DNA of 64,000 nucleotides from Protoeuglena noctilucae (taxonomy: Eukaryota), in the NCBI GenBank assembly GCA_958009085.1, contig OY253676.1:62001-126000 (forward strand), given 5' to 3'. The notes beneath the pieces are model-generated. The model was not told the DNA's origin. It did not search any database and worked only from the letters and a program-made list of their open reading frames with translations. A program made the position numbers and the translations under genes. Within the stretch, counting starts at the first letter, position 1; each line of letters opens with the position of its first letter. This document shows, one piece after another, positions 1-53,700 of the stretch.

Positions 1-2974
1 GGCGACGTGCTTCTTGGGTGCGGCAGTGTGCCGCTCCGCGAGCATCGTGCAAAGACCCAGCAAGGGTGCAAATGTGATCCATGCACCACCTCTTTAGTGC
101 ATCACGGCCCCTTGTGCGCCACTGCACCCCTGTGCACGGGTGCTGACCAGCACCCCTTTTGAACATGCATGCCAACATGCACCCCATCGCACAACCATCG
201 ACTCGCCTCGATGTCGAACAGGTCCTGGTCGACGGGGAATCCGTCCTGCAGCGTCCACTTCTTCGCGGGACTCCACTCCTTGGGGGGCATGGGCTGGAAC
301 CCGATGCGGCGGGCGTGGTCGGGAGCCCAGAAGTCGCGCTTCTCGAAACGCCACACCTGGGGAGAGAGCAGGGAGGGGACTGGATGTCAGGACACAAAAC
401 CTTGCAAGCTTGCCTGCTGTTTGACTGTTATACAAAGGGACAGCCAGTGGTGGTAGCCAAGGACCGCTTAACATCTCCAGCACCCAGGCCCCCAAACCCT
501 CGCCGCTTGACCCGCACTCCACCAGCACCCCTTACCTCCGGCCCGTATTTGAACTTGATCTGCTCCAGGACGTCCTTAGACCCCTCGTACTTGGCCGTCT
601 CCTGCCTCCGCTCGTTGTCGAACCACAGCGCGCCCCACGTGTAGTGCAGCATGGACGCCACCCCCATCACGCGGTCGTTGGGGGGTTGGGAGATGAGGCG
701 GTTGTCGGGGGTGCGCTTCAGGTCCAGCTTGACGCCCTGGGGGTGGCAGCGTGGGCGGCGGTGTGGGTGGCAGCGTGGTGATAGCGTGGGTGGCAGCGTG
801 GGTGTGGAAACACAAGGTAATCAGCCAACTGCTCGCTGCTCGCTGCTCTGCCCCTGTGCCCCGTCTATGTCATCGCCTGGCCCTCGCCTGCAGCGCCAGT
901 GCGATGCTGAAGGCGTACATCTCCCGCACCCACCCCAGCTGCTCTCGACAAGCCTCGTCGTTCTCAATGTGCAGGGTCAGGCGCTCCCAGTCGGGGGTCA
1001 CCCGCGCCCACTCGCCCGCACGCGCCAGCACGGGGGCTGGGCCACTGCGATACATGCGACATGACGAGCATTTTAGCTGTGCTTGTCAACTGGCGATAGA
1101 CTGGCATGGGCCTGGCTGGTCATCTCAGCCACCCTTGCACGCGTGTGATGCCCGCCTCTGTTACTATGGTCATTCATCTCAACCTCCCTCCCTCACATGC
1201 AATGCTCAGCTCTGGTTAGTCATTTCACCTGGGTGGTATGACGGAGAGCGCGCCCTTGGATTCGGGGAACATGGGCCTCATGAGAGTGGGGAAGGCGCCG
1301 GGGTTGATGTAGAAGAAGGGGAAGCCCTCGCTGATGGCAGTCGACTCCGCGGCGGGGGCGGACACGGGTTTCAAAAACACGTAGTCGCCCTCGATCATCA
1401 ACAGCCACGGGGCCTGGATGAGAGACGGGTCCTTCTCTGCAAGGGCGTGGGGTTGTGGGTGAGGGATGTTGAAGAGGGGCGGATGAGCACAGAGGTGCTG
1501 TGGGCTGACCCTCATGCTCCACACCCAGGGCGATGCGTTTGCATGGCATATAACGAAGCATATCACGAAACAAACATGTGGGCATGTGCCACGAGGTCCT
1601 CACCGGCTGCTTGGAGGAACTGGCGCACGGAGTTGGGCCTGTCCGCCACGGGGAAGGGGCACCACTTGTCGCAGGCGGGGGTGACGGGGTCGGCGCGGAA
1701 GGTGGGCACCTCGTGGGAGATGTCGTCGTGCTCTGACGTGGCAGAAAACAGAACAGAAATGTCGGATAGGAAATATCTAGGAAATATCGAAGACTGTGCA
1801 TGTGCTGCCCGCATGTGCCATGTATGCAACCCCAGCTCGCTCACCGGCACGGCTGAGGATACGCGTGAATGCGACCATCTTGTCCCCTCCCGGCATGGCC
1901 CTGGCGCGGAGGTAGGTGCGGTAGAGGATGCGCGTCTGGAAGTTCAAATAGGGCGTGCCGTTGCTGGTCACGAGCACGTGCACCGCATCGCCCCGGCTGG
2001 GCCATTGCGATGCGTCGATCGACATCCGCAGCAGCTCCTGGGGCGACGCATGAGGGGCAGGAGATGAGGGTCAGAGAATGCGGCTGATGATGGGCGATGG
2101 CAGTGGGGGTGGGGTGCTGCGGGGGTGGCAGTCAGAGCAGTGGCGACGTGCTCAGGCAGTCCGCGAGTCTAATGTGCATGGCATGCGTGCCCCCAAGCAC
2201 CAATGGGTCTGGGGCAGCACCACGCAATCCAAACAGCTCCAGAAAGCTCCCTCACCGCCGGCGACGCGCTGTGCTTGCCCCCGCATCCCCAATCGAAGTC
2301 GCACGTCGCGCCCGACAGCGTGGCCGCAGCATCCCGGGGAGCCCGCGTGGCGCGCGGGGTCTCCACGGGGCGCCCCTTCTTCGGCGGCGGTGTCCCGGCG
2401 GGCGTCTGCTTGGAAAGGGAGGCCTCAAAGTCCGCGCGGGGCACGGATCCCGAAAACTCATGGCGCACGTACTTGCCGCGGCCCGACGTTGCGGGAACGA
2501 CCTCCGCCACGCTGTCTGCGGCCTTAGATGGACTCTTCGCAGCCGCCGTGGGACGCGAACGGGGCGGTGGGGCGCGGGGAGCCGGCGTTGCGCGCGGCGG
2601 GGGGAAGCGAAGGCGGAGCTTCGACGCTGACGACCCCCGGCGTGCGCTCGGCGAACGGGGTGGCCGGACGGCGCACGACGGGGGCGGGGACGGCGATGGA
2701 GTTCCCCGGTGACCGCTGTACGAGGGCGTCCGAGAAGGTCATGAGGAGATATCCGCCGAAGAAGCCGACCAGGGCACCTGCCAGGAGAACCATGGCGATG
2801 ACATCCCCCGTGATCCTACGCAAGCGAGAGGAGAAGCGATCACTTGACACGTGCGGTAAAGGGAATGCGCCCAAATGCCCAGGTCAGCCACAACGCGCCT
2901 CACCCGCGCCGCAGCATCAAGAAGTCGTCGAGCAGGCCGCCATGGCGGGGCCGCGCGACCCTGGGAAGCCGCAT
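1..2974 (-). CDS. Hydroxyproline O-arabinosyltransferase (HPAT)-like type II membrane glycosyltransferase, multi-exon, 3' end runs off the window
   Basis: ATG at 2974 (MRLPRVARP...), then a TM helix (VIAMVLLAGALVGFFGGYLLM) and a Pro-rich stem. HPAT-type segments follow: VHVLVTSNGTPYLNFQTRILYRTY..MVAFTRIL, FPVADRPNSVRQFL, LLMIEGDYVFLKP, GPAPVL..W..LT..IE..LGWVREMYAFSIA, MLHYTWG, VWRFEKR. There is an unresolved frame change near 2600. Confidence 0.8.
741..808. repeat. Intronic 12-bp minisatellite (GGGTGGCAGCGT)n, degenerate
   Basis: About 5 units in an HPAT intron. Confidence 0.75.
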
Positions 2975-3382
2975 TGTATCTAAACTGAACAATGCGCGTG
3001 CTGCCTCCCAGAATCCCTGGGCTCCCGTCGCACAATTGGGTCCGCTGAGCAAACACTCTTTGCTCGCCCCCCCTCAGGCGTAATCAGGCGCTTCGCTGCC
3101 CGCCATGCCCCATGGCAGCAAGAAGAATAGCGCCAGTGCCAAATGCAACCGAACTCAAAAGCCAGCGGACAGATCCCCTGCTACACGAGAGCGTAGTGTG
3201 TTGCACTGAAAAAGTGTGTTGCACGGTCCAACTTTCTTCCCAGCACGGGATGCTCAGCGAGTGCCATTGGTTTTCTTGTCACCGCGCATGCAAGTAAGAT
3301 CAGATCCGCTTCAAGCGTAGGAATCGCGCCAGTAAAGAGACGCTAGCAAAGCAGTGTTGCTAAAGAAAGAGGCCAGGATCGC

Positions 3383-6300
3383 TCAAATGACGACGTCGAG
3401 GAACGCCGCGACGCCCGCGAGGATCCACTTGAGCTGCCCGACCTTGGACTTGAGCTGCGCCGTGAAGACCTCCTGGCGGAAGCGTGCCTCGGTCGTGTAG
3501 ACGGGCGTCTGGTAGGCGTCCTTGATGTCGGCGCGGTCGACCTGGACGGCCTTGACGAGGATGACGGGCAGCGGGCAGAAGAGCTGCTTGGGGAGCGAGT
3601 CGTCCAGGCACCCGCCCTTCTCGTCCCACCGCGCGCCCTCGAGCGTCAGCCCGTGGATGTACGCCCCGTCGCGCGCCGCCGCGTCGACCTGCTCCCGCGT
3701 GGCCTTTTTGGTCACCTCCGTCACCACCTCCGTCTTGTCAAGCGGCCACTCGTTGCGCCTGGCCGTGGTCTGCTTGACGGCCGTGAGGAAGGACTGGGGA
3801 TTGAAGAGGCCCGAAAGCCACACCGAGTTGGGCACCTGCAGCTCGTTCGTCCACCCGACGAGCTGCTCGTGGCGCTGGAGCAGGTTGAGGGTCCAGCTGG
3901 ACAGCGGGCGCAGGGATGGGTACGCGCGGATGGCCCAGGACCCGGGCGTCTGGTTGGCGGCCAGCGCGCGCATGAGCGTCTCCATGGGCCCGGACATGGT
4001 GAGGTCGCCGTTGAGGCCCAGGTCGAGCTCGATCAGCGAGCGGCGCATCTCGGCCACCAGCACGTTCATGCGCTCGGCCTCCTGGATGGCCACCATGGTG
4101 TAGGGGGAGAAGTCCCCGTCGCAGCGCCCGCGGATCTCCTCCATGTCGAACAGATCCGGCATCTTGTCCATGATGTCGTCCAGCGTCTGCAAACAATGCG
4201 ACGGGGTCAGGGTCGGAATGCGCATGGGTGGGCGGGGGCGGCAGCAACGTCAGCAAAGCGGCGGCGGCGTCACAGCGGGCGGCCAGCTGCAAGGACGAGT
4301 AAGGAAAACATCAAAGAGGCGCAGCTGTACCATCTAGCATCCCCAGCGACTCACCAGCTTGGCGCGCTGCTCCTCGCTCTGCCCGCCCTCGGCCCCCGCC
4401 GACCGCGGCTGCAGGTTGAGCACGGAGGCGCAGAATGCCTCGGCCTCTCGGAGCTTGAACCCAATCTCCGCGTTGGGGTGCATCCCGAAGGCCACGGGGC
4501 TCTCGGCCTTCATGAGCTCCTCGATGTGCTCGATGACCTCGCGGTGCGTGCTCGTGTTGGGCGGGATGGGGAAGCCGGGGTACATGTCCATCCCCTCGAG
4601 CAGGTCGTCGTTGAAGTATCGAACCAGGTACCCGTTCGACAGGCGCCGGTCCCAGTCCTCCACCACGTGGCCCCCGTACATGATCTCCCCGATCACGTAT
4701 CGCAAGTCGTCCCAGGGGACCTTGGTGGACTGCTCGAGGAAGTTGACGGCCACCTGCCCGCAGCAGAGGAGGTCGCCGGTGTTGAAGGGGTAGTTCATGT
4801 TCCACCCGATGCCGGACGTGGCGTTGGGGAGGTTGCCGACGCCGAACTTCTTTCGTTCCAAAATGACGGCGTGGTAGTAGCAGAGCGCGAAGAGGATGGA
4901 GCGCAGCTCGGCCTGCTTGGAGCAGTTCTCGATGACTTCGTCGCTGAACTGGCCCCAGGCGCGCAGCAGGTTGGCCTTGAGGCCCTCGGGCGGCTCGTTG
5001 GTGAGCTTGATCGACGCCTGCAGGATCGAGATGGGCAGGGGGCGCTCCAGGCTGGGAGGCGGCTCCGCGGAGATGAAGAGGCGGAAGTCCTCGTGCGTGT
5101 CCTCGGCCAGCTTGTCCACCACCTTGACCAGCTCCCCACTGGTCCAGTCGATGGTGAGGTGCACGTTCTGGAGCAACACCCAGCCGCCCTCCTTGCGCGC
5201 GCGCGCCAGCGCCTTGCTCGCGATCTCCTCCTGCCCCTGCCCCAGCGAGATGGTGGCGTACTTGCCGCTGTCGGCCGTGAAGCCGCCCTTGGCCCCCAGC
5301 GCCTCGACCGAGGCCGCCACGTCCACCCCGGGGGAGAGGAACACGAAGATGGGGATGTGGGGCGCGGCGTCCTCGAGCGACCGCTTGAGGTTGTAGGCCT
5401 GCGACACCACGTACCTCTCCCCGATGATCTTGGCCACGAACGTGCGCATGGCCGCGGTGAGGCGGTCGGGACGCAAAGCGCGGAAGAGGAGCAGCCGGTC
5501 GAACTCCCCCATTCGCTTGTAGTCACCGGGGGGGGCCTCCTCCTCGGGGCGCTGCAGCTCCATCCACTCCTTCCACCTGCAAGGGGGGGTGAGGGGGCAC
5601 AGGGGTGAGATGAGCACCACGGTCAAACAATCCAGAGACAGGCGACAAGCGGAACGGCATTGCGCAGCTGGCATTGCGCGAGTCCGCACAGCGCTACTCA
5701 ACAACGCTTTCCCTAACAGGCATGCAGCAGCCCGGCGCAGCACGAAACACTCAGTACACCCCTCAGCACACATCCCGCTCCTCGCCTCTTCTGGGATCCC
5801 GCGAGCTCCGATGGCAGCCCCGCGAAGTCCCCGATCTGCTCGAGGGCCATGACGGCGGCCCAGGAGCTGTCGGAAACGAACTCGGACACCGGGTTGGGCG
5901 TGCCCTCGACCTTGGGCCCGCGAAGCAGGTACTCGAACTTGGCCACGTCGAGCTCGTTGCGCTGCTTGAGGATGGCAATGGCCAGCTGCGTGGCCACGAT
6001 GAGCTTGTGCGGCTCGAACAGCCCCTGGGCCACGTACGCAAACACGGTGTGGGTGGTGGTCTCGATGAGGGAGATCACGCGGCGCCCCAGCCGCTCCTTT
6101 TCTCCCAAATTGTCGTCCGGCTGCTCGGCGACGTCCATGCCCTTGGACAGCACCCGCACGAAGTTGGCCATGGAGTAGTGGTAGACGCGGTCGAGCGCGT
6201 TGAGGTTGTCGATGAGGAAGTAGACGAGCGATCCTCGCGTCGCCACGGGGCGGTACACCTCGCGGGCCTGCTGGATGGACCGGGACGTCTCCTTGGCCTC

Positions 6301-12300: not shown

Positions 12301-15300
12301 GATGCCCGTGTCGTCGACGGTGAGCTTGCCGAGGTTGAAGTCGCGGAGGGCGCGGAGGAGGACCTGTGTTGGGGGGTGGGGGGTGAGGTTGAGAGTGAGG
12401 GTGGGGTGAGGTTGGGGTGAGGGTGCAAGGGGTGCAGCCCAGTATCAAGCACCGGGCATGCACAGCAGTGAGTGTATCAAGCGCTTGTATGCCACCCACG
12501 TCACACATCGCATCCGCATCCAGCCTGGTGGCTGGTACCAGCATTAAGCATAGCGCACCCCCGCCCACGCCACATACTAGAAAGTACTACTAATCGACCC
12601 CACCCCATCTCGCCTTCTCCTCGGTCATGTCCCACACCAAGCATGCACCCATGCACCCCATCGCCCATACCCCACACTATTAGATGCTACTAATCACCAC
12701 CCCCCAATCCCCATCTCGCCTTCTCCTCGGTCATGTCCGGCTCCTCCTTTTCGGCGATGCGCTTCATCCCCCCCGCGACGTACAGCGTGGTCTTGATGGC
12801 GCGCAGCTTCCAGTCGTAGTGGCGAGACTTGGACAGCAGGTCCTCGCACAGCTTGTACAAGATGACGAACTTGCGGGAGAGGATCTTGGAGGCCTGGAAC
12901 CCCTCGGCCATCAGCATGATCTCGCAGATGAGGCCCAGGTCGGGCACGACCATCGACACGGGGCGGAAGAGGGCTTTTAGGGACTCGGGCAGCTCGGCGC
13001 GCCCCGGGTAGCCAGGGTTCATGGTGATGAAGGCCATGACAGCGCGCTGGATGGGGATCTCGACTTCCTCGAACACGAAGCGTTCCTTCTGGCTCCTGGG
13101 GAGGGGGGGTGGGGGGGGTTGAGAGGTGAGGGGGGGTGAGTGGTGTGGGTGAGAGAGGGGGTGAGAGTGGGTGGGGTGGCAACGTGTGCGTGTTGACAGT
13201 TGACGGTGCGGCTTTCTAACCAAGTTCAGACAGTAACAGGATAGTAACTACAGCTGTACCCATTCCGCACATCATCGCCAACCTCCCCGCTCATCCCACA
13301 CCCCACAACACAACACATCCCACACCCCACATCTCTCCCCATCTCTCGCCTGAGCGCGTCGAGCACCGTCTTGTACTGCGTGGAGCACACCGACAGCACC
13401 GACACGGGGATGCGGTTGAACTCATCGAAGCACCCCCACGCCCCCGTCTGCGCCAGTCCCTTGTAGATCTGGCCCATGGCGCGGAAGTCCATCTGATCGC
13501 TGCAGTTGAAGACGTAGATCATAGTGGCCAAGTGCCTGGCCAGGTCCTTCACCGTCTCGGTCTTGCCGGTACCCGCGGGGCCGGCGGGGGCGCCGCCCAG
13601 CACCAGGCGCTGGGCCTGGGGGGATGGAGAGGGGGGTGGGGGTAAGTGAATGGGGGTGGGGAGTTGAGAAGAAAGAAGTAGAAACAGCAAGGGAGATGGG
13701 GTTAAGGTGCGGCAGCCACATGCCGCGTCAACACCCACACACACGCGCCCCATCCGCCATGATATAGATCCCGATACCCCCCTCGCCTGGGTGAGTGTGA
13801 TGTAGCAGCGGTCGGTGAGCGGCGTGATGCACAGGCACCCGGGGATGCCGATGTACTCGTAGTTGTAAGGGGCGTCGGCATCCACGATGTTGACCTGCAC
13901 CTCGCCCGTCTTGTCGTGGCGGTAGTATCGCAATTGCGACTGCCACTGGAAGCACGTGCCGTTCTCGACGCGCTCGTCGATGAGGCGCTGCACGACGTCC
14001 CGGCCGTGCACGTCGATGGTGCAGAGCATGATGAGCCGGCGGCGCTCGATCTTGGAGAGCGAGGGGCTGTTGATGACGTCGATGATGTCCGACAGCTGGT
14101 CGATCTGTGGATGGGAGAGGGGGGGGGGGGGGAGAGGGTGGGTGAGAGATGATCGAGGGTTGGTGAGCCAAGGGACTGCGCTCTTAGATGAATGGCGCAG
14201 GGGCTGCCCCGGACACTGTGCCTGTCAGCACCCCTTCCCACTCTCTTCCCACTTAATCTTAATCATCTTACCTGTCTCTGCAGCTCCACCTTGAGCGCCT
14301 CCTCGTTCCCGTCCTCCAACTCCGAGAACGCCTCGTTGATCTCCTGGGTCAAGTAGACGCGCGACACCACCACCGTCATCTGCACCGACATCTTGTTCGA
14401 CTCGCGGATCCAGTCGCGCCGCTTCATCTCCTCGTAAGAGGGCATCGCGCGCTCCTTGAACTCGTAGGAGACGGCTGGGGGGGGTGGGGGGTTAGGGGGA
14501 GTGGGGTGGCTGCGGGATGGGTGCGGTGGGGGCGGCACACGAGGGGGGAAGGATGGAGTGGGTATGTGGGAAGAGTGATGGGGTTGTTTGTCATATCATC
14601 AATTGCCATGTCAACTGCCATGCCACCACCCCCACTATCGGTTACATCCTCACCCTTGCGCATCCAGTCACCATCAACTACCATGCCACAACTCCCATTC
14701 CCACCCTCCGTCACCCCCTCACCCTTGCGCATCGAGTCGACGACCGTCTGCAGCCACACCTCCACCGGCCCGTCGCACAAGCAAGGAGGGGCGAACTCGG
14801 CGGGCGCGAACGGCATGACCTCCCCCTCCTTGCTGGTCATCTGCGTGGCCAGCTTGGTCAGAGCGCCCTTCTCGTCCTCCGCGTAGTCGAGCTTTGCGAT
14901 GTTGTCGAAGCACTTGGGGAGGTGGTCCTGGATCGCCTGGGATTGGGAATGGGGGAGAGGAGAGGGGTGGGTGTATGATATCATAAGGTCCGGGATGGCG
15001 TGTGATTGGGAATGGGGGAGAGGCGAGAGGTTTGGAGTTGTAGTCGGGGAGTGGGGGGGGGTCAGGTGCGGGTGCGACAGGGCCGGGCTTCTGGGCAGTA
15101 ACGGAGATACCACAGCAGCAGTCGAGAGCACACACGTATTTCGCCCGTGAAAGCGCAACACGTCTCGCTCTCTACCCCCACCCTACCCCCACCATCACCC
15201 ACTCACCAGTGGGTTCGACCCCTTGCTGAGCAGGTCCAGCAGCTCGGCGGCCGCCACGAAGTAGAAGCGCGGGAATGCCATGCGCTTCGTCTCCAGATAG

Positions 15301-18300
15301 TCCTGCAGCGCCTTCTCGCACGTCTCTAACTCCTTGTGCATGTTCTCCAGTCTCTCCTGACGGCCCTCGAGGTTGCACGCCTCGACCACGTTGGTGATGT
15401 CGGGGGCCGAGCGCATCAGGTCCTGGGGGGGGGGGGGGGGGGGGTGTAGGGGTGGTGGTGGTGGTGGGGGGTGAGGTGAGGTGGGGTTGGGTGGGTGGGC
15501 GCTAAAACGCAGCAAGACTGCAAGGTGGGAGTGGAAGAAAGCTAAGGTACGATGTGGTTGATGCCGGCACTAGCAATGAACCATATGCGGAATCGCAGGA
15601 GTAGGCAGTTGCTTTGCTGCATTGTCTCCCTCCCACCAATCGCTGACCTGGTAGTCGGTGTTGATGGCGTCGAAACGCTTTGAGTCCTCCGGCAGCTGCA
15701 CACGGATGTCCTGGGACCCCACGAAGATGCTCTCCAGATTCTGCCACTTCTTCTGCACCTCCAGCCACACCTGGGGTTGGGGAGAGGGGATGCGGTGTCA
15801 ATGCGACGCTTGCTATGATCAGCGTGGTCGGCATACGAAGGCATGCAAAGCCATGGGGAGCTAGCTATGAGTTGAGTAGCAAGCCACCATCTAACCGCCA
15901 TCTATCATGAACCCGCCCACCCACCCGATCGCAAGCGCACCCGACCGCACCCACGACCATTACCCCGCCCTCCACCCCTTTCTCACCTGCAGCGTCCCCT
16001 CGACGGTCCCGAGCTTCTTCTGCCACACGTTGACGATCTCCACGAACTTGGGGTTCCCCTGCACGTACTTGCCCCCCGCCATGCCCTGCAGTAGCATGTT
16101 GTCCTGCTCCAAAGCCTCGCGCACTTCGTCGGTCACTTCGACGCTGAAGGTGTCCGGGACGTCCGCGTAGGGCTTGAACTGCAAATCGTGGTTGTTCCAC
16201 GCCTCCTCGATCTTCCGCAGCTGCTTCTCGATCACCTCCTCCTTTTTGGCGCGATCGACAATGTCGCCGACCTCCTCCTGGAACATGTGCAGCTGCAAGT
16301 CCAGCAACGTCCCGAGCGTGAAGCTCTCGTCCATCACGAACTGCTTCCCCGTGGCCTTCATCAGCTGCTTCCAGTGCCGGTCGCGCATCGCGGGGTCGTG
16401 GAGGTCGGACACGAGCGGAAGGGACACCGACATGGCCTTCACCATGTCGTCCAGGTTCTTGTACACCTCGTACGTCCTCGCGGCCTTGCTGAGCGTCCGG
16501 ATGTCCTTGCTCAGCGCTTTGGTGCGCTCGGCGAGCATCTCCGTGTCGATGGACTCCCACTTGGTCGCGCGCCAGTCGTGGAAGATGAAGAACACGTAGG
16601 AGATCATGTCCCAGAGGGACTTCAGGTGCTCCAGCTCCTCCGCGCACCGCGTGAGGTGCACGTAGTCGACCACGTAGAGGTCAAACAGATCCTGGCACTC
16701 CTTCAGGTAATCGGCCTCTTTCATGAGCGCAGTCACGGAGTCCCAGCCGTCCACCTGTGGGGGGGAAGGGAGGATGGGGGGGTTGTAAGGTGGGTGGTGG
16801 ATGTTATTGAGATGTGGTGGGGCTAGGGAGTTGGGAAGCGTGCACCAAGCCGGGCAGCTGTGCATTGCAGCGCAACACTGTCACAGCATCGCGTCACCCC
16901 CATCACTCCCACTCAGTCACCTTGCCGTGGTGGAACTGGTCGAGCGTGCGGTACGCCTCCCAGATCCCCTCCAGCTCGATCTTGCCGCTGGGCGCCGTGA
17001 AGGGCGCGCGCTGCTGGAAGAAGCGCCGGAACTCCTCCACCTTCTGCCCGAATGCGTCGGCGCGGGTGCGGATCTTGGCGCCCTCGATCTGCTGCGCCAG
17101 GGCCACCTAGGGGGGGGGGGGAGGGGGGGAGGAGGGGTGTAAGAGAGAGAGGGGTTGTGTTGGGCTACTTAGGGGGGGGAGGGGTGTGGTTGGGAGGGGT
17201 GTTTGTTGTTAGGGAGAGAGGGGGTGGAGGTTGGTAGGGGCAGGGGAGCGCAGGTTGGTACAGGTGGGAGGAGGGCGAGGGAGTTAGATTGGGACGCAGA
17301 GCTGCATTGACCAAACATGAGTGCACCCTCACATTTACCTCGTTCACACCCCATCCACTCCCTCACCTCCCACCACACCCCATCCCCCACCACTCCCATC
17401 CACCCCTCACCTCCTCTTCCTTCGCCTCCATCTTCTTCTTCAAATTCTCAATCAATACCATCACTACCCACTCCCCATCTCTCACCTCCTCCTTCTTCGC
17501 CTCCATCTTCTTCTCCAAATTCTTCCACAGCCCCGGCACCTCCTCGAGCTTCTGCATGGCACGCTCGGGCACCACGTCGGCCGACGCGTGCATGTGCTGC
17601 CGGAGCAGGTCAACCGTGGCGGTGAGGGGCTCGAACATGGCGTCGGTGCGGTCCTTGCGCTTGCGGATGTCGCGCATGCAGCCCATGACCTGGGGGGGGG
17701 GGGGGGGTTGGGGGGGGGGGGTTGACGGTATGTGCGTGGGCCAAGTGGGTGAGTGAGTGATGAAGGGGTGGGTGGGCAGGTGGGTGGGTGAAGTGGGCAG
17801 GTTGTCCATCGTTACACACGTGATATTACAGATCCCATGACACCCCCACCACTCGCCTTGTACAGGCTCTGATTCATCTGCCACGACGCACCCATCACCA
17901 CAACCCCCCCCCCCCCCCCTTCCCAGTCAATATTGCTCATTGCACATGTGTCATGTACATAACAACTAACCTTGTACAGGCTCTGGTTCATCTGCGACGA
18001 CGCGTCGTTCTCCTCCTCCCCCTCCCCCTCCCCCTCCCCCTGCTCCTCCTCTCCCTCGCCCTCCTCAGCCTCGCCCTCGCCCTCCTCCTCTTCCCCGGAT
18101 GCCGGCTCCTGGGGGGCCGTGTCGTGCTGCGATGGGATAGATAGATGGAGAGAGAGATCATATGTTGTCACGACATGTGTTCACATGTGACGACATTTGG
18201 CGACATTGTACAGTACTGCTCGGGGGCCAGCAATGCTTGGGAACTACTAGGCAGCCCTTAAGGGTGGAAACAACAGCACAGGGTGTGCCAGCGGCGCTCC

Positions 18301-36600: not shown

Positions 36601-37043
36601 GAAATCGTGGCCATCCGTCGCCGACGTCAACGCCATGGTGAGTCCGCGTGGGCTTGGAAGAAGAGCAATGGCGATTGGCAGGCAGGTGTGCTGGTTGACA
36701 CCACGGCCGATTTCACAGTTGCTGATACATAAGCAGCGCATCGATGGTCCTCGCCGATACAATACATATTAATTCGCTCTTTCCTCCCATCGTCGCCCCG
36801 CAGGGTTACGACGACATGCTGCAGTGGCGTTTGGCGTGCGAGTCCGGGGAGGTGGTGCTGCAGCGTCGGCCGAGCATGGAGCTGTCCGCGCCCAAGACGC
36901 GGCCGCTGTGGGTGAAACTCGAGGCATTGCTCAACTACATCTTCCGGAGGCTCATGTACGTGCCGGGGGAGCCCATGGCCACCTTCAGCATGGACGCCTT
37001 CTACAAAAAGATGAAGAAGATCGACCACGACCTCGGGTCCTGA
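24660..37043 (+). CDS. Large armadillo-like/helical repeat protein with a conserved C-terminal domain, probably flagella-associated; ~28 exons
   Basis: Exons splice in frame from MAAMKSSGLL to KKIDHDLGS*. ARM-like helices include AVATAAIWTMAA, LTCTLANMAANE, MMAGMWILLR, TINSLWGVV, LKALLNVS and SKVLQNVALHPLNRTRLY. The C-terminal block (WRLPESIFKPRLKEADSKGFFD...CKKSDCDTVFIQCNF...LRHEFLEAVIRL...NHFRRERLY) resembles flagellar-associated proteins as recalled. Confidence 0.75.
25699..25722. repeat. (GT)n microsatellite in an intron
   Basis: About 12 GT units. Confidence 0.95.
32801..32863. repeat. (GATACT)n hexamer microsatellite in an intron
   Basis: gatactggtattgatactgatactgatactgataccgataccaatactgttactgataccgat. 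Confidence 0.9.
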
Positions 37044-37649
37044 TGCGCGATTGGCATGTCCTTGCGTGTCCATCCTAGCTACGGCAATGCGTGTTTGAAG
37101 CTTCGCAGTCTGCACGTGCTGGAAAGGGCGTGACGCTGCTGGGAAATGCTCAGGGCCTTGCGCTGGTAGCCACAAGGCCTATTAGCAGCATATCTCCGAT
37201 CGCTGGTCGCGCGTGAAATCCAGCGGTGCCTTGGTTGTTGCTGGGCGAGGGACTTTGGCAATTTGACAGGTGGGAGCAGGCTCGCGTCCAGCCGACAGGT
37301 CAGCGCGCATCTTGGTTCCAAAATCAGCTCTTCGTTGGCTTCGATGATTGCGGTGCTTGCGCCAAGCGCCAGTCTGTGCCGCATCCCTAACTTTGGAGTC
37401 GAGCGCGTTCCGAATCGCCACTCAGCTGTCGATTCGATCACGTCGCGCCAAGTTCGGTCACTGCTATCGTCCTCAGGGGCTCACGGTCCTCGGGCGACGC
37501 GGCGCAGGGCCCAACAGGCGGGGTGGCAAGGGATCCCTCCGCTTTCAATTGCGCGTCGAGGATGGGACAGGGCTGCAGCAGGGGCTCACAGGGCAGGTGA
37601 GGGCAGAAGCGCGGAGCGCGACTTCGCGCCGCGGCGTCCCCTTCCGCGA

Positions 37650-40600
37650 ATGGGCGGTGCGGCGGCCTGGGCCAAGGCCGTGCTCTCTTATCGGGAGGGC
37701 GCAGCCTTCGAGGCGCGATGCCCGAGGTCGGCCTTTGGTGCCCGTTAATCCGGTTGCGGCCTGGGGGTGTGTCGCCATCTGTCTCGCCGGCGGCGGCATT
37801 GGCAAGGAACCGGGGGGATGTGCGCGGGGCAGAGCAGCGCCGTTGCATCGCGCCGATCCGCGTCGACTGCACTGACGGTTCTTCTTCGCGAATCGCTTGC
37901 GACGACCCGTCTGTCGGCGCCGCTCGCGTGCCGTCGGCGCGGCCCGGCGGACATGGGCCTCAACTACCGCGGCTGCCCTGGGCTTGCTCGTTTGTCGCGA
38001 ATATCGCGCGCCTCTGACCGATTCCACCCCGCATCGCTTCGCATCGCAGAGCCAAGATCAGCTGGGGATGCGCGAGCGCGTCCAGCGCCGGTGCGGGCGC
38101 CTCGCTCACCGTGCGACCCGAGGGTGCGCTTGCCCGCGCGGCCGGCGCTCGCGGGTATCGGGTCCACGCCGCAAACGCGCGCGATGACCCGCCAATTCCT
38201 TTCCCGCTTTCCGCAGCCCTGCGAGCGGCGCACGTGGTCCTGCAGCGGCTCGCGAGGGAGTGCGGGGAATGCGGTCGTCAGCTCCAGCTGGCCCCCAGCG
38301 GCGCGGGTTTGCCCCTGTCGGAACCGGACGATGAAATGGACGTCGTGGATTCGCGAGGCGTGGGGCCTCCCCGGCTCCTGGATGCCTGCTTGGACCGTCT
38401 GGTCGAAGGCCTGGCCCACTTGAGGCGAGTCACATGCATGGGCTGAGGGGCTAAGCTATGGTTCTCATATGCACACGAGCTCTTGCATGTACACGCACCC
38501 GCACCCGCACCCGCACCCGCACCCGCACCTCCTTCACCCTGCGCATTCTCCCTCCCCACCCCTGCAGGCCCGCGTCCCTCGACTGCCTCCCCTGCGACCT
38601 GGCCCAGCTGCTCCTCGACCGCGTCATTGAGATGGGCACCCTCACGGAGGCCCACTTGCCCCTCTTCGCCTCACGATATGGGGTGCTGGAGCTGCACTTG
38701 GGGGGACCCAGGGGATACCCTGGAGTGACGGGTGAGTTTCTGAAACTGTGCATGGCTGGAGCAGGAGTGCAGATGCGCGATCGTGGGTACATCCACGCAT
38801 CCCTCGTTCACATCTTGCCAGCTACCGTCTACCCACTCCTCTCACCCCTTTCACCCTCCCCTCTCACCCTCTGACCCCTCTGACCCTCCCCATTCCCGCC
38901 CACCCCCAGACGCCTGGGTATGCCCCCTCCTGGGCCCCTCCCTGGTTCGCCTGGACCTCCACGGCTGCGCGGCCGTCACCGACACATCCCTCACCGCCGT
39001 CTCCACCTGCCGCTCTCTGACCGACCTCGACCTGTCCGGGTGCCAGACCCTGTCCTCCCGGGCCCTCGCACGGTGCCTGACGCACCTCCCCAAGCTGCGC
39101 TGCCTCGCACTCGCCGGCTGCCCCGGTGTCGACTCGGACGTCGTCGCTGCCATCGCCAAGCTCACCCGCCTGCGGTCGCTGAGCCTCGAGCGATGCCGGG
39201 GGACTTACGAGCGATGCAGGGGCGGGGGCGTCGAGCGACATGGGGGGGTCGCGAAGCCGGACCCGCGGGCGCTTGCAGACCTCGCGCACTTGCCTGGTGA
39301 GGTGGTGTTGTGGGGGATGAGAGCATGAGATTACTGCGTGAGATGCACTTGCTTGGTGACGCTGTGGATGCACTTCCCTAGTAACAGTAACGCTTGTATT
39401 CTCTTACTCTTCCCCACCCCACCCCATCCCGTCCCATCCCACCCCACCCCACCCCATCCCATCCAATCCCACCCCACCCCCAGCCCTGGAGCACCTCTAC
39501 TTGGGGTGGACGGGTGGCGCAGTCACAGGCATGCACCTGGCTGCGTTTGGGTGCATGAAGGGTCTCAAAATCCTCGACGTTTCCGATGCTACGATCGACG
39601 CCATGGACATTGGGGAGCTGGCGGGGCTGTCGGGGCTCACGGCGCTGTGCCTGGACCGGTGCATGAGAGTGACCGAGTCCACGCCCACACGGGGAAAGGT
39701 GAGGGAGGGGTGGGGCTGAGGGGTGGTGGTTGTGTTGTGTGGAACTGATGTGAGTCCTCGCCATCTTTTGGCAAGGCAAGATGGTGCGCAAGGATCGCGC
39801 TGTGAGGGTGCGTCGACTGTCAAGCGGGAGTCTAAGCGTGATGGGTGGATGTCGAGAGTAAGAGGGGCTGACTGTTAGTGACCATCATGATCGTGACTTA
39901 TTTCTTCTATCCCCAGAGCATCAGCAGCTCTGTGACGATGGACAACGACGACGTGGAGGGCCTTCAGGTGTTGCTGACCATGCCGCGGCTGGCCAGACTG
40001 GTGAGGGATGGGTGATGGAGGGTGGAGAGGTACAAAACGAGGCATAGTTACAGCACAGATGAGATGCAGAGACCGACATGATTATGCCATGCAGCCGCGA
40101 TCGACGATGAATGCGATGGATGCTGACGCTGTGACACATCGGCTGCGCATTGTGTGGGGCCATGCTTAGCGCGTCGCCTGTGCCACGGCCCCTCTCTCAC
40201 CTCCCTTCCCGCAGTCCCTCCGCGGTGTGTTAGTCAGCGGCGTGGATGTCCGAGACTACATCGCCCAGGTCTCTGAGCTGGAGAGTCTGTGGTGAGCGGC
40301 GGCTGCTGTTTGTGAACTGGCGGCCCGTGGTTGTGAGATGGTGTGCAATGGCGGGGCCTTGCTGGAGATAAGCACTCCGCGAGGAGATAAGGAAGCATTT
40401 GTAATGGGATGAGGATCGGGTTAGGGTCTAAGTGTCTTATATGCAGTGCCGTGCAATGCATGACCCACTTCACCCTATCTCTCCCCTTCTCTCCCCAGCC
40501 TCGCCGAGTGCGACATCGACGACGTCTGCTCCCTCTCGCATCTCTCTCGCCTCTCCCGCCTCTCTCACCTCGACTTGGAAGACACGGACGTGAACGACCA

Positions 40601-47766: not shown

Positions 47767-50700
47767 ATGGAAGGGGGCGAGGAGATGGGCCGGCCGGCCC
47801 GCACGTTGTCGGAACGGGTGCGCCTCACGGCCTTGCCGATGTTTTGGCGACGGCGCGCGCTCTCCGAGCTCCTGCCGCCGGTCCGCGCCCCTGCGCGGGT
47901 CCGATCGAACATTTTCGATTGCTTCGTGCGCTGCCTCGGCCTCTCCGCCAGGAGAATTCCCGGCGCGGCCCGGCAAGGGCATCTCGCTGTCCTGGGCCAA
48001 CATTCGCGCCTGGCCGGGGATATGCGCCCTTGCCCCGCCTTGCTCGGTCCATGGGGTGGAGAGGCCGCGGCAGTGGCATCGCGCGCGCGAGATACCCAGA
48101 CCCCGTGTCGCATTCCCCCCGTGCATGGGGCTGCATGCGTGCGGGACGGGCAGCCGGGGTCCTCGTTGCTTGCGACGGGACCTGCGTTTCTCGCTTACAT
48201 AACTGCAACCCCTTCCACCTCTTGGCCCGCAGCTGGCGGAGATATTGGGGTCTAGGGCCTGGCTCGTTCTCCAGTGCGTGGCGGTGGCCGTCCTTGCCCT
48301 TCTGGATGTCTTGCTAGTGTACGCGCACTCCGATGATCAGTCTGTCAAAGTCGCCGTGTCCAGGTGCCAAGCGGGGGGCGGCGCGCCAGCGCAAACTGCA
48401 TCGAATGCCCCTGCCTGCCCAAACGCCTCCCCGCGCGGCGCCCGCAGCAACGACGTCGGCCTCGATCTGTTTGGACTCAGCTCGCCATTCGTCTTGCTCC
48501 TGCTCGCGGACACCACCCTCAACGTCTTTTTCCAGAGCGCCGGGACCGTGCGCTTTTTCTCCAGGCGAGCGACGCGCCCGCGGGCAGGGCGTCGCTCGCC
48601 AAGCGCGGTTGCGATGCACGCGGCATCGAACCCTGAGCGCGTTGCCGCTCGCAGGGACGTGCTTTACATGGACGCGCTCCTGGACATTGGCACGCTGGGG
48701 GGCTGCTACATCTCCATGGCAGTCAACACCAGCTACTGGTCCGACCCGCTCGCATTCCGGAGGTGCGGGGCCGCATGTCGGCCGCGTGCCCGCGTCGGCG
48801 AGTGCCCAGCGGCACCTGCACGTGCCCCCCGCTCCCCGCCCGCAGCGGCTCATTCGACGACTGGGCGGCGTGGACGACCCTGGCCAAGCAGCGGTCGGCG
48901 GGCGTCACGCACGCCGGGCTGATGCTCATTTTGTTCCGCGTCGGCATCAGCGCTTACCGCTACCACTGCTGGAGGGTGCGCAGGCCGCATGTGCGACGCG
49001 GGCACACCCGCAAGCGAGCGCCAGCCGAGCCCGTCGGGGTCGCAAGCGCGCTGACGTGGATGCCCTACCATTTCCCGCGCAGGCCGTGCTCCGTGGAAAG
49101 CTCCAGGACAAGGTCCAGACGTCCCGCAACATACGCGCGCTACTGCTGGGCATGACAATCATTTCCACCTTCATGTTCCTGTTCGTCCTGCAGGCGAGCT
49201 GCAGCAGCGCTGCGGGCTTCTGGCTGCGTCCGTGCCACGCGTCCATAGGCGCCCTCCAGGCTCAGCACGGGCAATCCGCAGCGTGCACATCGTGACGTGC
49301 CCACCGCCCGCCCTCGCAGCTCGTGGTCCAGCTGTCGGTCAAGGGGGCCTGGAGCGCCGTGCTGAGCGGCCCGCGCACCATCGCCGATGCCCTGGGTCAG
49401 ATCTCGGAAGGTGGGCCATTCGCGCGCGCGTCCGGTGCCATCCATCGCACCGAGCGACGCCCCGACACTCAGATTCAAACAGACCCTTCCCAGCAACCGC
49501 ACCGGATGACGCCCCACCCCCGCAGAGTCCGACTTCATGGCCGCCGCCCAGGCGACGGTGGCTGAGCTGGGCACGTCCGAGAACGCTGGGTCCTGCCACA
49601 CCATCCTCAGCGTCTCCAAGGGCCCATGGCGAGCCGACAGCCCCCTCCTCAGCCAGCTGCACTTCGAGCACGTGAGCAGACTGCATCGGGTGCTGCATGG
49701 GGTGCGATCATCACCCATCACTCCTGGGCTGTCCATGCACGGCCTGGGGCAGGGACCGACCGTGAGGTCAACCTCACCCTTTTGACGCTCATGGAAACCC
49801 TCTGGCCTCGCTTCGTTCCCTCCAGGATTGGGACGAGGTCAAGGACCGCATGCCCGTGGCCTTCCTGGTCCCGAGCGACTACGTGGTGGAGGTGTCGCAG
49901 GGGAGCGTCGACATGATGCTCATGCTCACGCGGTGCGACTGGGACTGGAGCCTGCACGTCGCCAAAATCGTCTTCACGGGCATCATCCTCCTGGTGAGGG
50001 ATTAACAGCCCGGACTATGGCCCGCCGGGCGCACTGCGACAGCTGCCATGTGAGCAAATGCTGCATGACACACTGTGCTTGTGGCACCGGCACCGTCACC
50101 CACCCCCGGCTGTTCCACCCCCGCAGACGGTGCTGGTGGTGCACATGCTGGGCCAGAGCGGCGTCCTGATGCCCCTCTTCTCCCTCATGGCCGTCATCAT
50201 CGCCGCCGGCTCCACCCTCAACGACGAGGGCATGCTGGTGGACGTGGGCGTGCGGCAGAACAGCGACCTGGGCCCCGAGCAGGCCGTGGCGCGCGTCGTC
50301 AAGGCCATCAAGCTCCTTTGGAAGGCGTCCCTGCGAGGGAAGGCCGTCGTCAACCGACTCCTGCTCGAGGCCAACCAAACCATGGTGAGGGGACAAGGGG
50401 AACACCCAAACTCATCGCAAGCAGATTTGACTGTTACGGTTTCACTGCTACTGTAATAGTCGAGTCGTGACTTCTTCTGCTCTCCGCGCTGGCTCCATGC
50501 CACGGAGCTCGTGCTATTGGTATGTGCGCAACCCATTACATGCGACCCCCGTCTGCAGAGCCGGCCGTACCAGGAGCTGGGCGTCATGGCCATCTTCGGC
50601 GCATCGGACGAACGCGACAGGACCACGAGGCCGTCGAGAAGGGTGAGGAAGCCTGGCTTGGTGTCTGCAAGTGACGATCGACTGTCGGTGCGACGCTCGA

Positions 50701-53700
50701 CACTTGACCCGATCGCTGCGCGTGCGATCCGAAGCAGTCCCCAGCACGGCAGCCCCACCCCACACCCACCCGCCCCACGCGCTCGACACTCTCCATCCCC
50801 CCGCTCCCCCAGGCGCGGCGCGCATCCAAGAGACCCACCTGACGGCCCAGGCCCGCCCGTCCCGCAAGCGCCTGTACGGCATCCCCAACGCCCGCGTCCA
50901 GGCCTACATCCACGGCGCGGCGTCCACCCCCGCCAGCCCCATCGCCTCCACGCCCGCGCGTGCCAGCCGCGGAACCATCGCTGAGCTGGGGAGCCTGGTG
51001 GACGGTGCTGGGCTGGGGCCGGGAACGATGGGCGCGGTCGGGCCGGGGCCTCTGTCACCCGGAAGGGAGCGGGACGCTGCGTCGCCGCGGTTCCGACGCA
51101 GCGCGACGACCGGGGTGCCGGGCATCGCGGGCAAGTCGGCGGTGGCAGAGCTGTCGTACGACCGGGAGCCATCGCGGGCGAACGGGCGGGGGCTGGACAG
51201 GGAGGCGTCGGGGAGGCCCCCCACGGGGCGCGTGCGGCGCAACAGCGCTCAGGTGAGCGTGCTGGGCGGCATGAGTGGTCATGAGAGAATCGGCAGCTTG
51301 ACACGCGCGCCCGCAGCGCCGTCTCATGTCATTCATTCTCCCCACCCCATTCGACGGCGTGCCTCGCACCCACTCACCACCCACTCCCTCTTCGCAGAAC
51401 GACGGCGTGACGACCGTGGCGGGCTCGTCTCCCCTGAGCAGCCGCAACCCCCGCACGACGCTGACGACGGCGGGGAGCCTACCCCGCGCGCACTCGCCCA
51501 CCACCCGCGAGCACAGCACGGGGCTGGGGATGGACGTGGGGGGTGCCAGGCGCGCGGCGCGGGGGTCCCGCGTGCACCCCTCGTCCCACAGCGTGGCGGC
51601 CCACACCCCGTCCGCACGAAGCAACCACGCCTCCGTGCACGGGGGAATGGGCGCCGCCCTGGCGTCGCGGCTCGCCTCGCAGCGCAGCGACGACGCGGAC
51701 CCCGCTGCGTCGCAGAGGGTGCCCCCTGTGCCTGCACTGACGTACTCCAAGTCCACAGCAGCGGTCCTGGGGGGGACGAGGCGCGTCGCGGAGCGGGGCG
51801 GGGAGGAGGTCAGCGCGAGCGACGGGGGGAGGCCCAAGGGACCCCCGCCGCGGTGGCTGTCCGCGGTGGTGGCGCCGGAGCCCGGCGAGGCGGGCGGGGG
51901 TGGCGGGGGTGCACAGGATGGGGACGCGGTGGTGGCGTTTGCTCATGAGGACAGCGAAGGCGAGGGTGGGAGTCGGGCGGACAGTGGGGGGCGTGGTGCC
52001 GCGTCGGACGGGGCTGGGGAGGCGGGGCTGATGGGTGGGAAGGAGGACAGCGGGGTGGCGGGGCGGACGGAGTTCTCTGGGGACGCAGTGGGCGCTGCGA
52101 TGGAGGCGCTGGGCCTAAAAGTGTTTCCCACGCACAGCATGGAAGGGTCGGCGGGGACGGGGACGGTGACGGTGTCTGGGGTGGGCGCGGCGGGTCCCTT
52201 GGGGAGCGACGCGGGGGCGGGCCTGGACCGGAGCTCGCAGGGCCGGCCGACGGCGGGGGTGGACGGGGTGAGCCGCGAGGCGCTGTCGGAGATGGCGGAG
52301 ATGGCGGCGTGGTCGTCCAAGCTGGGGACGTTCGATTGGGACGTGCTGTCGTTGAGTGAGGAAGGGGTCAAGGCGTCGGTCGTGCTCATGTTCGAGGCAC
52401 TGGGGCTGCTGGTGGAAGAGAAAGCGGCTGGGGAGGGGGAGCGGGACGTGGGGAGCCTGTGCGGGCGTGGGCTGGGGGCGGCGTCGATGGGGAGCGTGGT
52501 GGTGCGTGGGTCGACCGGGGCGGTCGAGGGCATCCTGGCACGGCGCATGAGCAACAAGGGGTCCCGCAGCGACAACTCGCGGTACGTCAGCGCGAGGAGG
52601 GACGCCAGCGTGGCCACCGGTGAGCGCGGGTGGGGTGGGGTGGGGTTGGTGGGAGCAACATGTGATACGAACCCACCCCATACAGCAGCAGAGCAAGCTA
52701 TGAGATATGAAACAGCGTGCGTGTGTACCGGGGCTGGTGCGTGCTGATTGCCGAGGCTCGTAAGCGTGTGTGTGGTCTTCGCAGGGGAGGTGGAGCACGG
52801 GGGCGGGGACGAGGTTGCCCAGCCGGGCAGTGAGAGGGGCAAGTCGAGGCTGGACGTGCCATCGCTGCCGGAGGTGAGAGATTACGTGAGCAGCGTCGAT
52901 GACGCAAAGTCTGCAATTTACACTCCATCTGCCATCTCATCAACGTATATGGTTGGTGCCACCACCTCTCCTGTCGCCGTTAATTTGTTCTCTCCCCTTG
53001 CACATGCCCACCCACCTTCCACCATTCCAACCCGCCCCTCCCCGCCACCCCAGGCCCAGGGCGTGGTGACCCGTGAGTCCTTGGAGTGTCTCATGGACTG
53101 CCTGCGTGCGTGCTACGACGACCACCCCTACCATTGCTGGCGCCACGCCGTGGACGTCACCCACTCGGCCTTCACCATCCTCACGCTCGCGTGGGGGTGG
53201 GTCGAGGAGCACCTTACCACCCTCGACGTCCTGTGCTTGATGGTGGCCGCGCTGGGACACGACGTGCGACACCGTGGTGTCAGCAACCAGTTCCTCACCC
53301 GCACGGGGGACCTCCTGGCCCTCACCTACAACGACCAGAGCGTGCAGGAGATGATGCACGCCGCCAGCTTCTTCCAACTCATCCGGCAGGCGAGGGGGTG
53401 GGGTATGGGGTAGCGATGACGGCGTATTGCATGCAGCGGGCGAGGAGCGGTTTCGAATTGCACCCACACCTTCATCCACACCCATCTACCCCACCCCTAC
53501 CCACACCCATACCCACGCCCACACCCCATCCCTCTCCTCCCCCCCAGGAACCCCGCGCGGACGTCTTCGCCCTCCTGGACCCCTCGGAGCGCCAGCAGGC
53601 CCGCCGCCTGGTCATCTCCCTGATACTCGACACCGACATGGCATCGCACTTCCGGCAGACGGGCACGCTCGAGATCCTGGCTGACGGGGTGGAGACGGGG

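What the first reader, a model, noticed from the sequence alone, without database searches (positions are those of the whole stretch)
205..53391. Very high frequency of GC-AG introns (consensus AG|GCGAG)
Frame-preserving splicing points to GC donors at 206, 5785, 12719, 13349, 13786, 18451, 19435 and 21744 (minus strand) and at 25852, 27187, 31864, 32780, 33605, 34726, 35704, 38425, 48565, 49194 and 53390 (plus strand). That is 7 of 29 dynein introns and 7 of ~27 ARM-gene introns (~25%), against roughly 1% in most eukaryotes. Nearly all have AG at -2/-1 and GAG at +3..+5, consistent with compensation through stronger U1/U5 pairing. High GC-donor use is known in some haptophytes and dinoflagellates but would be notable in a green alga.
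Basis: partly seen in the sequence, partly recalled or inferred. Interest (0 to 1): 0.7.

Follow-up and report, generated by a model that had tools for sequence, protein, structure and literature searches.

The report
GC-start introns common in green alga
In this small marine green alga and two of its relatives, roughly one intron in five begins with GC instead of the near-universal GT even though the splicing RNAs are standard, which makes the group a natural test case for how the splicing machine can relax its strictest rule.

Summary
Confirmed and extended. All 19 listed sites are GC donors, and a 20th (887) was missed: 20 of 91 modelled window introns.

RNA contigs show the joints at 35704 and 21744 in two studies and indirectly support 19435 and 34726. 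Homology prefers GC over any nearby GT at 6 of 7 dynein sites; 18451 rests on motif alone.

The trait is genome-wide. A gene finder blind to base +2, run on 640 kb from all 23 large contigs, called 231 GT, 75 GC and 19 GG/GA donors. The strict count (AG|GCRAG) is 58 of 325 (18%, CI 14-22%).

The organism is a pedinophyte, and two metagenomic relatives also use GC donors often. U1, U2, U5 and U6 are canonical, and the introns are not a repeat family. GC occurs almost only where both AG at -2/-1 and AG at +4/+5 are present (89 GC vs 101 GT), so U+2 behaves as a tradeable position.

High GC use is known in haptophytes (56%) and pelagophytes (14-17%). The highest green-algal annotation I found is 8.5%. 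Verdict: a new member of a known kind, cause untested.

The parts
1..206 (-). GC-AG intron (GAG|GCGAGT), last intron of the HPAT-like gene; 252 nt, acceptor 45 bases beyond the window start
   Evidence: frame closes with the neighbouring stretch L091; HPAT Pfam hit on another exon
737..887 (-).
   Evidence: read-through stops after 5 codons
3383..24088 (-). outer-arm dynein beta heavy chain gene, 29 introns, 7 GC
5577..5785 (-). GC-AG intron
   Evidence: homology score 287 vs best GT alternative 263, no gap near the junction in 10 of 10 homologs
12364..12719 (-). GC-AG intron; a second copy of exon end + GC donor sits at 12613
   Evidence: 311 vs 237 (7 of 10 homologs carry a gap within 8 residues, a 4-residue one in those printed); copy
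13096..13349 (-). GC-AG intron
   Evidence: 375 vs 358.5, no gap in 10 of 10 homologs
13616..13786 (-). GC-AG intron just before the AAA1 P-loop
   Evidence: 338.5 vs 325.5, no gap in 10 of 10 homologs
18127..18451 (-). probable GC-AG intron (CAG|GCAAGG); in-frame CCG|GTCGGG 9 nt upstream not excluded
   Evidence: homology tie, 94.8 vs 95.0; donor score 5.5 vs -0.4; no RNA shown
19161..19435 (-). GC-AG intron; a copy of the exon end with a GT donor sits at 19342
   Evidence: RNA contigs of two studies stop at 19435 (records 1 and 12); homology 138 vs 117
21401..21744 (-). GC-AG intron, RNA-confirmed
   Evidence: X4 record 14 joins 21744-21827 to 21215-21399; the X1 loose end equals the next exon; homology 199 vs 183
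24660..37043 (+).
   Evidence: 3' part transcribed and spliced
25852..26077 (+). GC-AG intron
   Evidence: open frame; best in-frame GT scores -1.5 vs 6.3; no RNA shown
27187..27410 (+). GC-AG intron with atypical TG| exon end (ATG|GCGAGT)
   Evidence: no RNA shown
31864..32066 (+). GC-AG intron
   Evidence: no RNA shown
32780..33000 (+). GC-AG intron
   Evidence: one X2 piece reads through the donor unspliced
33605..33717 (+). GC-AG intron
   Evidence: X1 record 3 begins at 33715, as expected from the shared CAG (weak hint)
34726..34914 (+). GC-AG intron, RNA-supported by length
   Evidence: unshown middle of X1 record 3 is 387 nt and the model gives 387; GT alternatives give 402 or 363
35704..35866 (+). 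GC-AG intron, RNA-confirmed in two studies
   Evidence: 163-nt joint in X1 and X4; of five possible cuts only one is canonical, GC..AG
38425..38567 (+). GC-AG intron in an LRR-like gene (37562-41890; label read from the repeat pattern, not from a library hit)
   Evidence: open frame of 659 aa; no in-frame GT alternative
48565..48654 (+). GC-AG intron, PDE-like gene
49194..49319 (+). GC-AG intron, PDE-like gene
53390..53547 (+). GC-AG intron inside the PDEase_I domain

Best explanation
These are ordinary major-spliceosome (U2-type) introns. In this pedinophyte clade the U at intron position +2 has been demoted from near-obligatory to one of several interchangeable contributions to donor strength. 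A donor needs about five of seven consensus features (M-3, A-2, G-1, T+2, A+4, G+5, T+6) on top of G+1 and a purine at +3. Where the exon end (AG) and the +4/+5 AG are both present, a T-to-C change at +2 is tolerated. Such sites drift to a T:C ratio close to the genome's own, giving about 20% GC overall. SHOWN: the introns, their share, the context rule, canonical snRNAs, no intron family, one GT/GC flip between orthologues. INFERRED: recurrent point mutation as the route, U1 A7-C wobble plus U5/U6 pairing as the physical basis, and near-neutrality. UNTESTED: whether a protein change (U1-C, Prp8 or another factor) lowered the cost of C+2. I put that at about 40%, against about 40% for a normally tolerant spliceosome under GC pressure and weak selection, and 20% for other causes.
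For: RNA joints and ends. A spliced U1-C protein from a 2136-nt contig is identical to my model, including its GC intron. Homology-only calls: Prp8 11 GT + 2 GC of 13; kinase 4 GT + 3 GC of 7; dynein 6 of 7. A +2-blind gene finder, cross-validated at 28 of 29 dynein introns exact, gives 231 GT / 75 GC / 19 GG+GA in random stretches. By context (AG|..AG, AG|other, other|..AG, neither), GC:GT = 89:101, 9:97, 6:126, 5:19. In AG|GNGAG, T:C:A:G = 92:80:1:0, against intron-interior GTG:GCG = 1876:1673 (p = 0.88). The number of consensus matches has variance 0.56 against 1.09 in permutations (minimum 0.875 of 2000), and averages 5.07 for GT and 4.88 for GC donors. U1, U2, U5 and U6 are canonical. No second U1 was found. 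3 non-self hits among 533 introns. The same intron position is GC in L099 and GT here. PMC4383343 (passages): a +2C site binds human U1 snRNP better than +2A, presumably by an A-C wobble.
Against: RNA is thin: metatranscriptome contigs at depth 2-16. Of 10 GC donors in the laid stretch, 2 show a joint, 2 are indirect, 1 is a hint and 5 show nothing (tables were cut). X2 pieces read unspliced through 19435 and 32780, but also through GT introns at 23669, 24786, 33223 and 36638, so they are DNA or pre-mRNA. The gene finder errs: 17 of 27 exact on the second gene in cross-validation, 25 of 477 calls GG/GA, and false GC calls seen (34362; L099; L179). +2 is not simply neutral in strong sites: the C share is 12/56 after G-3, 32/47 after A-3 and 23/25 with T+6. 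The homology-only test on dynein paralogues was noisy (22 GT, 7 GC, 9 GG/GA of 38).
Confidence: 0.8

Rival explanations
1. Annotation artefact: transcripts use nearby GT donors and the true GC share is a few percent.
For: 18451 is a homology tie; the gene finder makes false GC calls.
Against: RNA joints at 35704 and 21744. Homology-only GC calls in Prp8, kinase and dynein. For all 20 window sites the best in-frame GT scores at least 3.5 below the GC site or is absent (the two HPAT sites were re-listed in the correct phase). Strict control: AG|GRRAG 1 against AG|GCRAG 87.
Confidence: 0.03
2. GC donors were spread by an introner (transposon-derived intron family), as in Aureococcus or Micromonas.
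For: Intron positions differ a lot between relatives: Prp8 has 13 introns here, 0 in L099 and 1 in L102, and the kinase shares 2 of 5 and 2 of 7 positions. Some dynein genes lie in 1700-2850-aa open frames. Recent intron gain is therefore likely.
Against: Only 3 weak non-self hits among 533 introns; no excess of terminal inverted repeats; lengths are broad and alike for GT and GC (median 149 vs 147); GT/GC flips at one position.
Confidence: 0.06
3. A variant U1 (G at position 7) or the minor spliceosome handles GC donors.
For: The RNA-family searches scored only 41 of 427 (U1) and 42 of 119 (U12) candidates, so absence is not proven.
Against: One U1 found by model, by DNA similarity and by loop pattern (the second pattern hit does not resemble the U1 locus between the two loop motifs, and the reversed control also gave one hit). 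GC donors follow the U2-type consensus with CAG acceptors (108 of 109). With a matching U1, GC donors would not need extra flanking matches.
Confidence: 0.04
4. Selection favours GC at otherwise too-strong donors (an upper limit on U1 pairing), or uses GC donors to regulate intron retention.
For: All seven consensus features together occur once against 26 expected. AG|GTGAGT is 2 of 92 and AG|GCGAGT 23 of 80 (p = 4e-7); a content-only filter without a donor model gave 4/81 and 22/59. The U1-C and Prp8 genes themselves carry GC introns.
Against: A lower threshold plus mutation also thins the upper tail, and the neutral T frequency at +6 is uncertain (6-9% after AGG[AG]GAG genome-wide, 18% after GAG in introns). 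The GC share is homogeneous across blocks (p = 0.64). No retention data.
Confidence: 0.2

Closest known systems
Emiliania huxleyi GC-AG prevalence (PMC4028052, passages read)
   Same: High-GC genome (65%), GC donors with AG acceptors, ab initio models miss them.
   Different: 56-64% GC plus some GA there; here 18-24% and no real GA/GG class; unrelated lineage. The passages I read give no context rule.
Pelagophytes Aureococcus anophagefferens and Pelagomonas calceolata (10.1101/2024.10.30.620910, passages read)
   Same: 14-17% predicted GC-AG, attributed to high GC content.
   Different: Intron-poor stramenopiles with introner-length introns (PMC9481584, passages). Here an intron-rich green alga with no intron family detected.
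Dinoflagellate GC/GA donors (PMC7789003 table and PMC12584245, passages read)
   Same: Large GC share at the donor, AG acceptor.
   Different: GA donors are also used there (GC|GA 25-74% in three table columns); here +2 is restricted to T or C.
Green algae with raised annotated GC-AG: Ostreococcus tauri 8.5%, Micractinium conductrix 7.0%, Micromonas pusilla 5.8%, Chlorella sorokiniana 5.7% (PMC6310983 supplementary file 7, two rows; computed)
   Same: Same phylum, same direction.
   Different: Two to three times lower; these are annotation counts that may under-call GC. The other ten of the 14 green algae are at 0-3.2%.
Ordinary U2-type GC-AG introns of plants and animals (about 1.2% in plants, PMC6310983 abstract and passages)
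   Same: AG acceptor and major spliceosome; the stronger flanking consensus of GC donors is recalled knowledge.
   Different: Here C reaches about 47% of donors in the strong context instead of staying rare.

Membership tests
U2-type GC-AG intron | Removed precisely between GC and AG in mature RNA | tested here: met
   35704 and 21744 in two studies; 19435 and 34726 indirect; U1-C protein
U2-type GC-AG intron | Donor complementary to the U1 5' end apart from +2; YAG acceptor with pyrimidine tract | tested here: met
   5.98 Watson-Crick matches excluding +2 for GC donors vs 5.14 for GT; CAG in 108 of 109; C-rich tract
U2-type GC-AG intron | Major snRNAs present with canonical pairing motifs | tested here: met
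   U1, U2, U5, U6; U4 not searched
U2-type GC-AG intron | Dependence on U1/U2 snRNPs shown by experiment | not testable with these tools
   needs knock-down or in vitro splicing
U12-type intron | RTATCCT donor (recalled) and U11/U12 snRNAs | tested here: not met
   donors are GYGAG-type; the U12 search found nothing but had no positive control
Introner elements | Families of similar introns, terminal inverted repeats, narrow length | tested here: not met
   3 hits among 533 introns, no inverted-repeat excess; the sample is about 3% of the genome
Genomes with high GC-donor use (haptophytes, pelagophytes, dinoflagellates) | GC share far above 1-2% genome-wide | tested here: met
   58 of 325 strict, 75 of 306 raw, in 640 kb from C1-C23; strict GC donors in 33 of 40 blocks with calls
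Genomes with high GC-donor use (haptophytes, pelagophytes, dinoflagellates) | Share measured from transcriptome-wide junctions | not testable with these tools
   one lay of 20 kb only
Pedinophyceae (Marsupiomonadales) | Phylogenetic placement with named pedinophytes | tested here: met
   Prp8 clade with Pedinophyceae sp. YPF-701, SH-like 100 (FastTree, one gene); plastid RpoA best named hit Marsupiomonas sp. NIES 1824, 44% over 99%

The most novel reading that the evidence does not exclude
A clade of marine pedinophytes has a spliceosome that no longer treats U+2 as special, because of protein changes around the U1/5' splice-site duplex. U1-C has Val and Leu where human has Ser19 and Arg28 (a related protein has Leu at both), and Prp8 has clade-shared substitutions at otherwise invariant sites. 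Selection holds donor strength inside a window, so that GC is favoured at otherwise over-strong sites. This would be an independent, recent origin of a GY donor rule in Viridiplantae that can be traced among close relatives.
Probability: 0.3. Interest if true: 0.72.

Novelty: new member of a known kind. Interest (0 to 1): 0.52.

Why it matters
Why GU is near-invariant at intron starts, and why a few lineages escape the rule, is open. The known escapees (haptophytes, pelagophytes, dinoflagellates) are explained only loosely by GC content. Here the shift sits in a small-genome green alga with canonical snRNAs. Close relatives share it, a sister pedinophyte genome is available for comparison, and other GC-rich green algae lack it, so cause can be separated from base composition. 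Practically, GT-only gene prediction would mis-model most multi-intron genes in this clade: at 20% GC, a gene with 8 introns has an 83% chance of holding at least one GC donor.

Tried and rejected
Nearby-GT artefact: rejected except at 18451. Introner origin: not supported in a 533-intron sample. snRNA variants: none found.

GA/GG donors as a real class: rejected, since the 23 calls listed have no consensus and low scores.

Prp8 as the cause: 33 substitutions at near-invariant columns were listed, about half shared with relatives. I could not map them to +2 contacts, so no claim is made.

U1-C as the cause: a lead only. PMC4383343 (passages) reports that single Ala changes at these residues had no growth effect in yeast, and one unrelated protein (P0365) also has Val at position 19.

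GC content alone: the 17 Prp8 introns called in eight GC-rich (62-66%) outgroup loci (L142, L152, L153, L173, L175-L178, some near-duplicates) were all GT. The numbers are small.

Earlier findings: none for this genome, none for the full word set; one search listed other genomes only.

Full report
OBSERVATION. All 19 coordinates are GC dinucleotides. Using them, the minus-strand dynein gene (24088 to 3383; outer-arm beta type by best named hits) reads 4575 codons to a single stop, with 29 introns of which 7 are GC. The plus-strand gene 24660-37043 reads 2346 codons with 27 introns, 7 GC. The total is 20 of 91; junctions whose frame I could not close were left out (see observation check). AGGCGAG occurs 30 times against 14.0 +/- 4.2 in shuffles.

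RNA. One lay of 18000-37990 was possible: three marine metatranscriptomes from two studies, plus one run that behaves as DNA. It holds 10 GC donors. 35704-35866 is joined in X1 and X4, and of the five equivalent cuts only GC..AG is canonical. 21744-21401 is joined in X4 record 14 and by an X1 loose end. At 19435, contigs of both studies stop exactly; X1 carries 110 further letters whose place is not shown. At 34726, the unshown middle of X1 record 3 is 387 nt, the model length; the GT alternatives give 402 or 363. 33605 has only a hint, and five donors show nothing in tables that were cut. X2 pieces run unspliced through GT and GC introns alike. The DNA run shows no other letter at the donors. 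Separately, a 203-aa protein from a 2136-nt JGI contig is identical to my spliced U1-C, whose second intron is GC-AG. That the contig is RNA-derived is my inference.

HOMOLOGY. For the seven dynein GC introns, the GC junction beat the best GT donor/AG acceptor alternative by 13-74 points in six; 18451 lies in an unconserved acidic loop and ties. With no splice model at all, Prp8 gave 11 GT and 2 GC of 13 junctions, and a kinase gene gave 4 GT and 3 GC of 7. All five GC calls are AG|GCGAG. Dynein paralogues, with distant references, were noisy: 22 GT, 7 GC and 9 GG/GA of 38.

GENOME-WIDE SHARE. I wrote a gene finder whose donor model was trained on GT sites only and ignores base +2, so that GA and GG calls measure error. 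Trained on one window gene and tested on the other, it got 28 of 29 and 17 of 27 introns exact. It was then self-trained and run on 640 kb of stretches chosen by round coordinates from C1-C23, plus 200 kb around dynein and Prp8 genes. Before filtering, the first 570 kb gave 490 GT, 174 GC, 67 GG and 21 GA. Keeping introns with both flanking exons well scored left 325 in the random set: 231 GT, 75 GC, 13 GG, 6 GA. Counting only AG|GCRAG gives 58 of 325 = 17.8% (CI 14.1-22.4), and the raw ratio is 75 of 306 = 24.5%. The share is homogeneous across 35 blocks (p = 0.64). A check with no donor model gave T 81, C 59, G 10, A 5 at AG|GNGAG sites with coding sequence upstream and intron-like sequence downstream.

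ORGANISM AND RELATIVES. The genome has 26.3 Mb in 27 contigs and a green-algal plastid. Plastid RpoA has Marsupiomonas as best named hit. In a Prp8 tree the genome and two metagenomic relatives (L099, L102) form a clade sister to Pedinophyceae sp. YPF-701. L099 has 3 GC of 5 introns in the kinase orthologue, each confirmed against this genome's orthologue, plus two predicted GT introns elsewhere. L102 has a GC intron in Prp8 and 2 GC of 2 in a neighbouring gene, by open frame only. One shared intron position is GC in L099 and GT here. Eight GC-rich outgroup loci gave 17 introns, all GT.

HOW IT WORKS. U1 begins AUACUUACCUG, and U5 loop 1, U6 ACAGAGA and the U2 branch-pairing region are canonical. 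Three searches found one U1. The introns are not a family. GT donors need either AG at -2/-1 or AG at +4/+5; GC donors need both (GC:GT = 89:101, 9:97, 6:126 and 5:19 across the four classes). In AG|GNGAG the T:C ratio is 92:80, the same as GTG:GCG inside introns. T+2 is negatively associated with each of the six other consensus positions. The total number of matches is tightly held (variance 0.56 vs 1.09 permuted) and nearly equal for GT and GC donors; the low tail of that distribution is partly trimmed by my detection threshold. The simplest reading is an additive threshold in which U+2 counts about as much as one other position, with point mutation filling tolerated sites. GC is still favoured by extra support (A or C at -3, T at +6), and AG|GTGAGT is scarce, which leaves room for an upper limit on pairing. 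Computed U1 duplex energies remain weaker for GC donors (median -6.3 vs -8.7 kcal/mol), so simple U1 pairing does not fully compensate; an A-C wobble (PMC4383343), U5/U6 contacts or a protein change must make up the rest. U1-C differs from human at Ser19 and Arg28. It also has Ser and Phe at positions 11 and 12, where PMC4383343 names Thr11 and Tyr12. This is a lead, not evidence.

COMPARISON AND NOVELTY. It works like, and is, a set of U2-type GC-AG introns. Genomes with a high share are known: E. huxleyi 56% of 241 curated junctions (PMC4028052), pelagophytes 14-17% (10.1101/2024.10.30.620910) and dinoflagellates (PMC7789003, PMC12584245). Among 14 green algae in the supplement of PMC6310983 the top annotated value is 8.5%, and such annotations may under-call GC. 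Ten searches of the open-access library listed no report of this in pedinophytes. The YPF-701 genome preprint (10.1101/2021.10.04.463119) has no occurrence of 'splice' in its main text (its supplements could not be seen). The passages shown from PMC12574857 (12 of 48) concern organelles and taxonomy. Subscription journals were not searched. All papers were seen as search listings and passages, not whole texts; others consulted by passage were PMC7072748, PMC4540971, PMC11347168, PMC9481584 and PMC3488318.

VERDICT. Real, genome-wide and shared by the clade; a new member of a known kind, apparently the highest in green algae so far, with a clear context rule and an untested cause. Interest 0.52.

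Noticed in passing
window 19435/19342, 17970/17856, 12719/12613, 20306/20244, 17485, 14722/14653, 31218/31287, 34366/34475; also about 53740/53804: Many introns hold a second copy of the exon end plus donor 50-260 nt downstream: 8 of 56 introns in the two long genes and 18 of 477 in the genome sample, against 1.45 in shuffled pairings. In three pairs the copies differ GT vs GC. RNA uses the upstream copy at 19435, 20306 and 34366.
   Followed up: partly
window about 31360 vs 31423, and about 53930 vs 54015: Copies of the next exon's start (the second with its acceptor) lie inside the preceding intron, suggesting local tandem duplication at both intron ends.
   Followed up: no
G000 C5, C9, C4, C11, C1 dynein AAA_6 matches: Six dynein genes have the motor region in open frames of 1715-2855 aa, while the window's dynein has 29 introns; intron density is very uneven between paralogues.
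   Followed up: no
L049-L050, L099, L102: Prp8 has 13 introns here, none in L099 and one in L102. Kinase and syntaxin-like genes lie next to Prp8 in both this genome and L099, in a different arrangement. This points to recent intron gain or loss.
   Followed up: partly
L029:1501-2662: U1-C gene with one GC intron; the protein has S11, F12, L18, V19 and L28 at or near RNA-contact positions.
   Followed up: partly
window 50385-50812: The PDE-like gene's frame does not close with the obvious donor at 50643; an alternative site, a micro-exon or an assembly slip is possible.
   Followed up: no
window 31747: AAG acceptor (CCCCCAAG) in a genome where 447 of 452 GT/GC calls end in CAG.
   Followed up: no
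window 37266-37474 and 37597-38049: RNA shows a GT-AG intron upstream of the LRR-like gene's ATG and confirms its first coding intron.
   Followed up: no
L005:1501-1620: The U5 Sm site reads AGUUUGUGG rather than the family's AAUUUUUGG.
   Followed up: no
window 45548-47468, 58011-58540, 59180-59420, 60470-61230, 63258-64000: Further genes seen but not modelled to closure. 59180-59420 looks like an Lsm/Sm protein, 60470-61230 like the splicing factor SF3b p14, and 63258-64000 like a PAP2 phosphatase (labels recalled from the sequence, from no call).
   Followed up: no
L091 (left of the window): A glycogen/starch phosphorylase-like gene (label from the translation) with 2 GC donors among its 8 well-formed predicted introns.
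   Followed up: no
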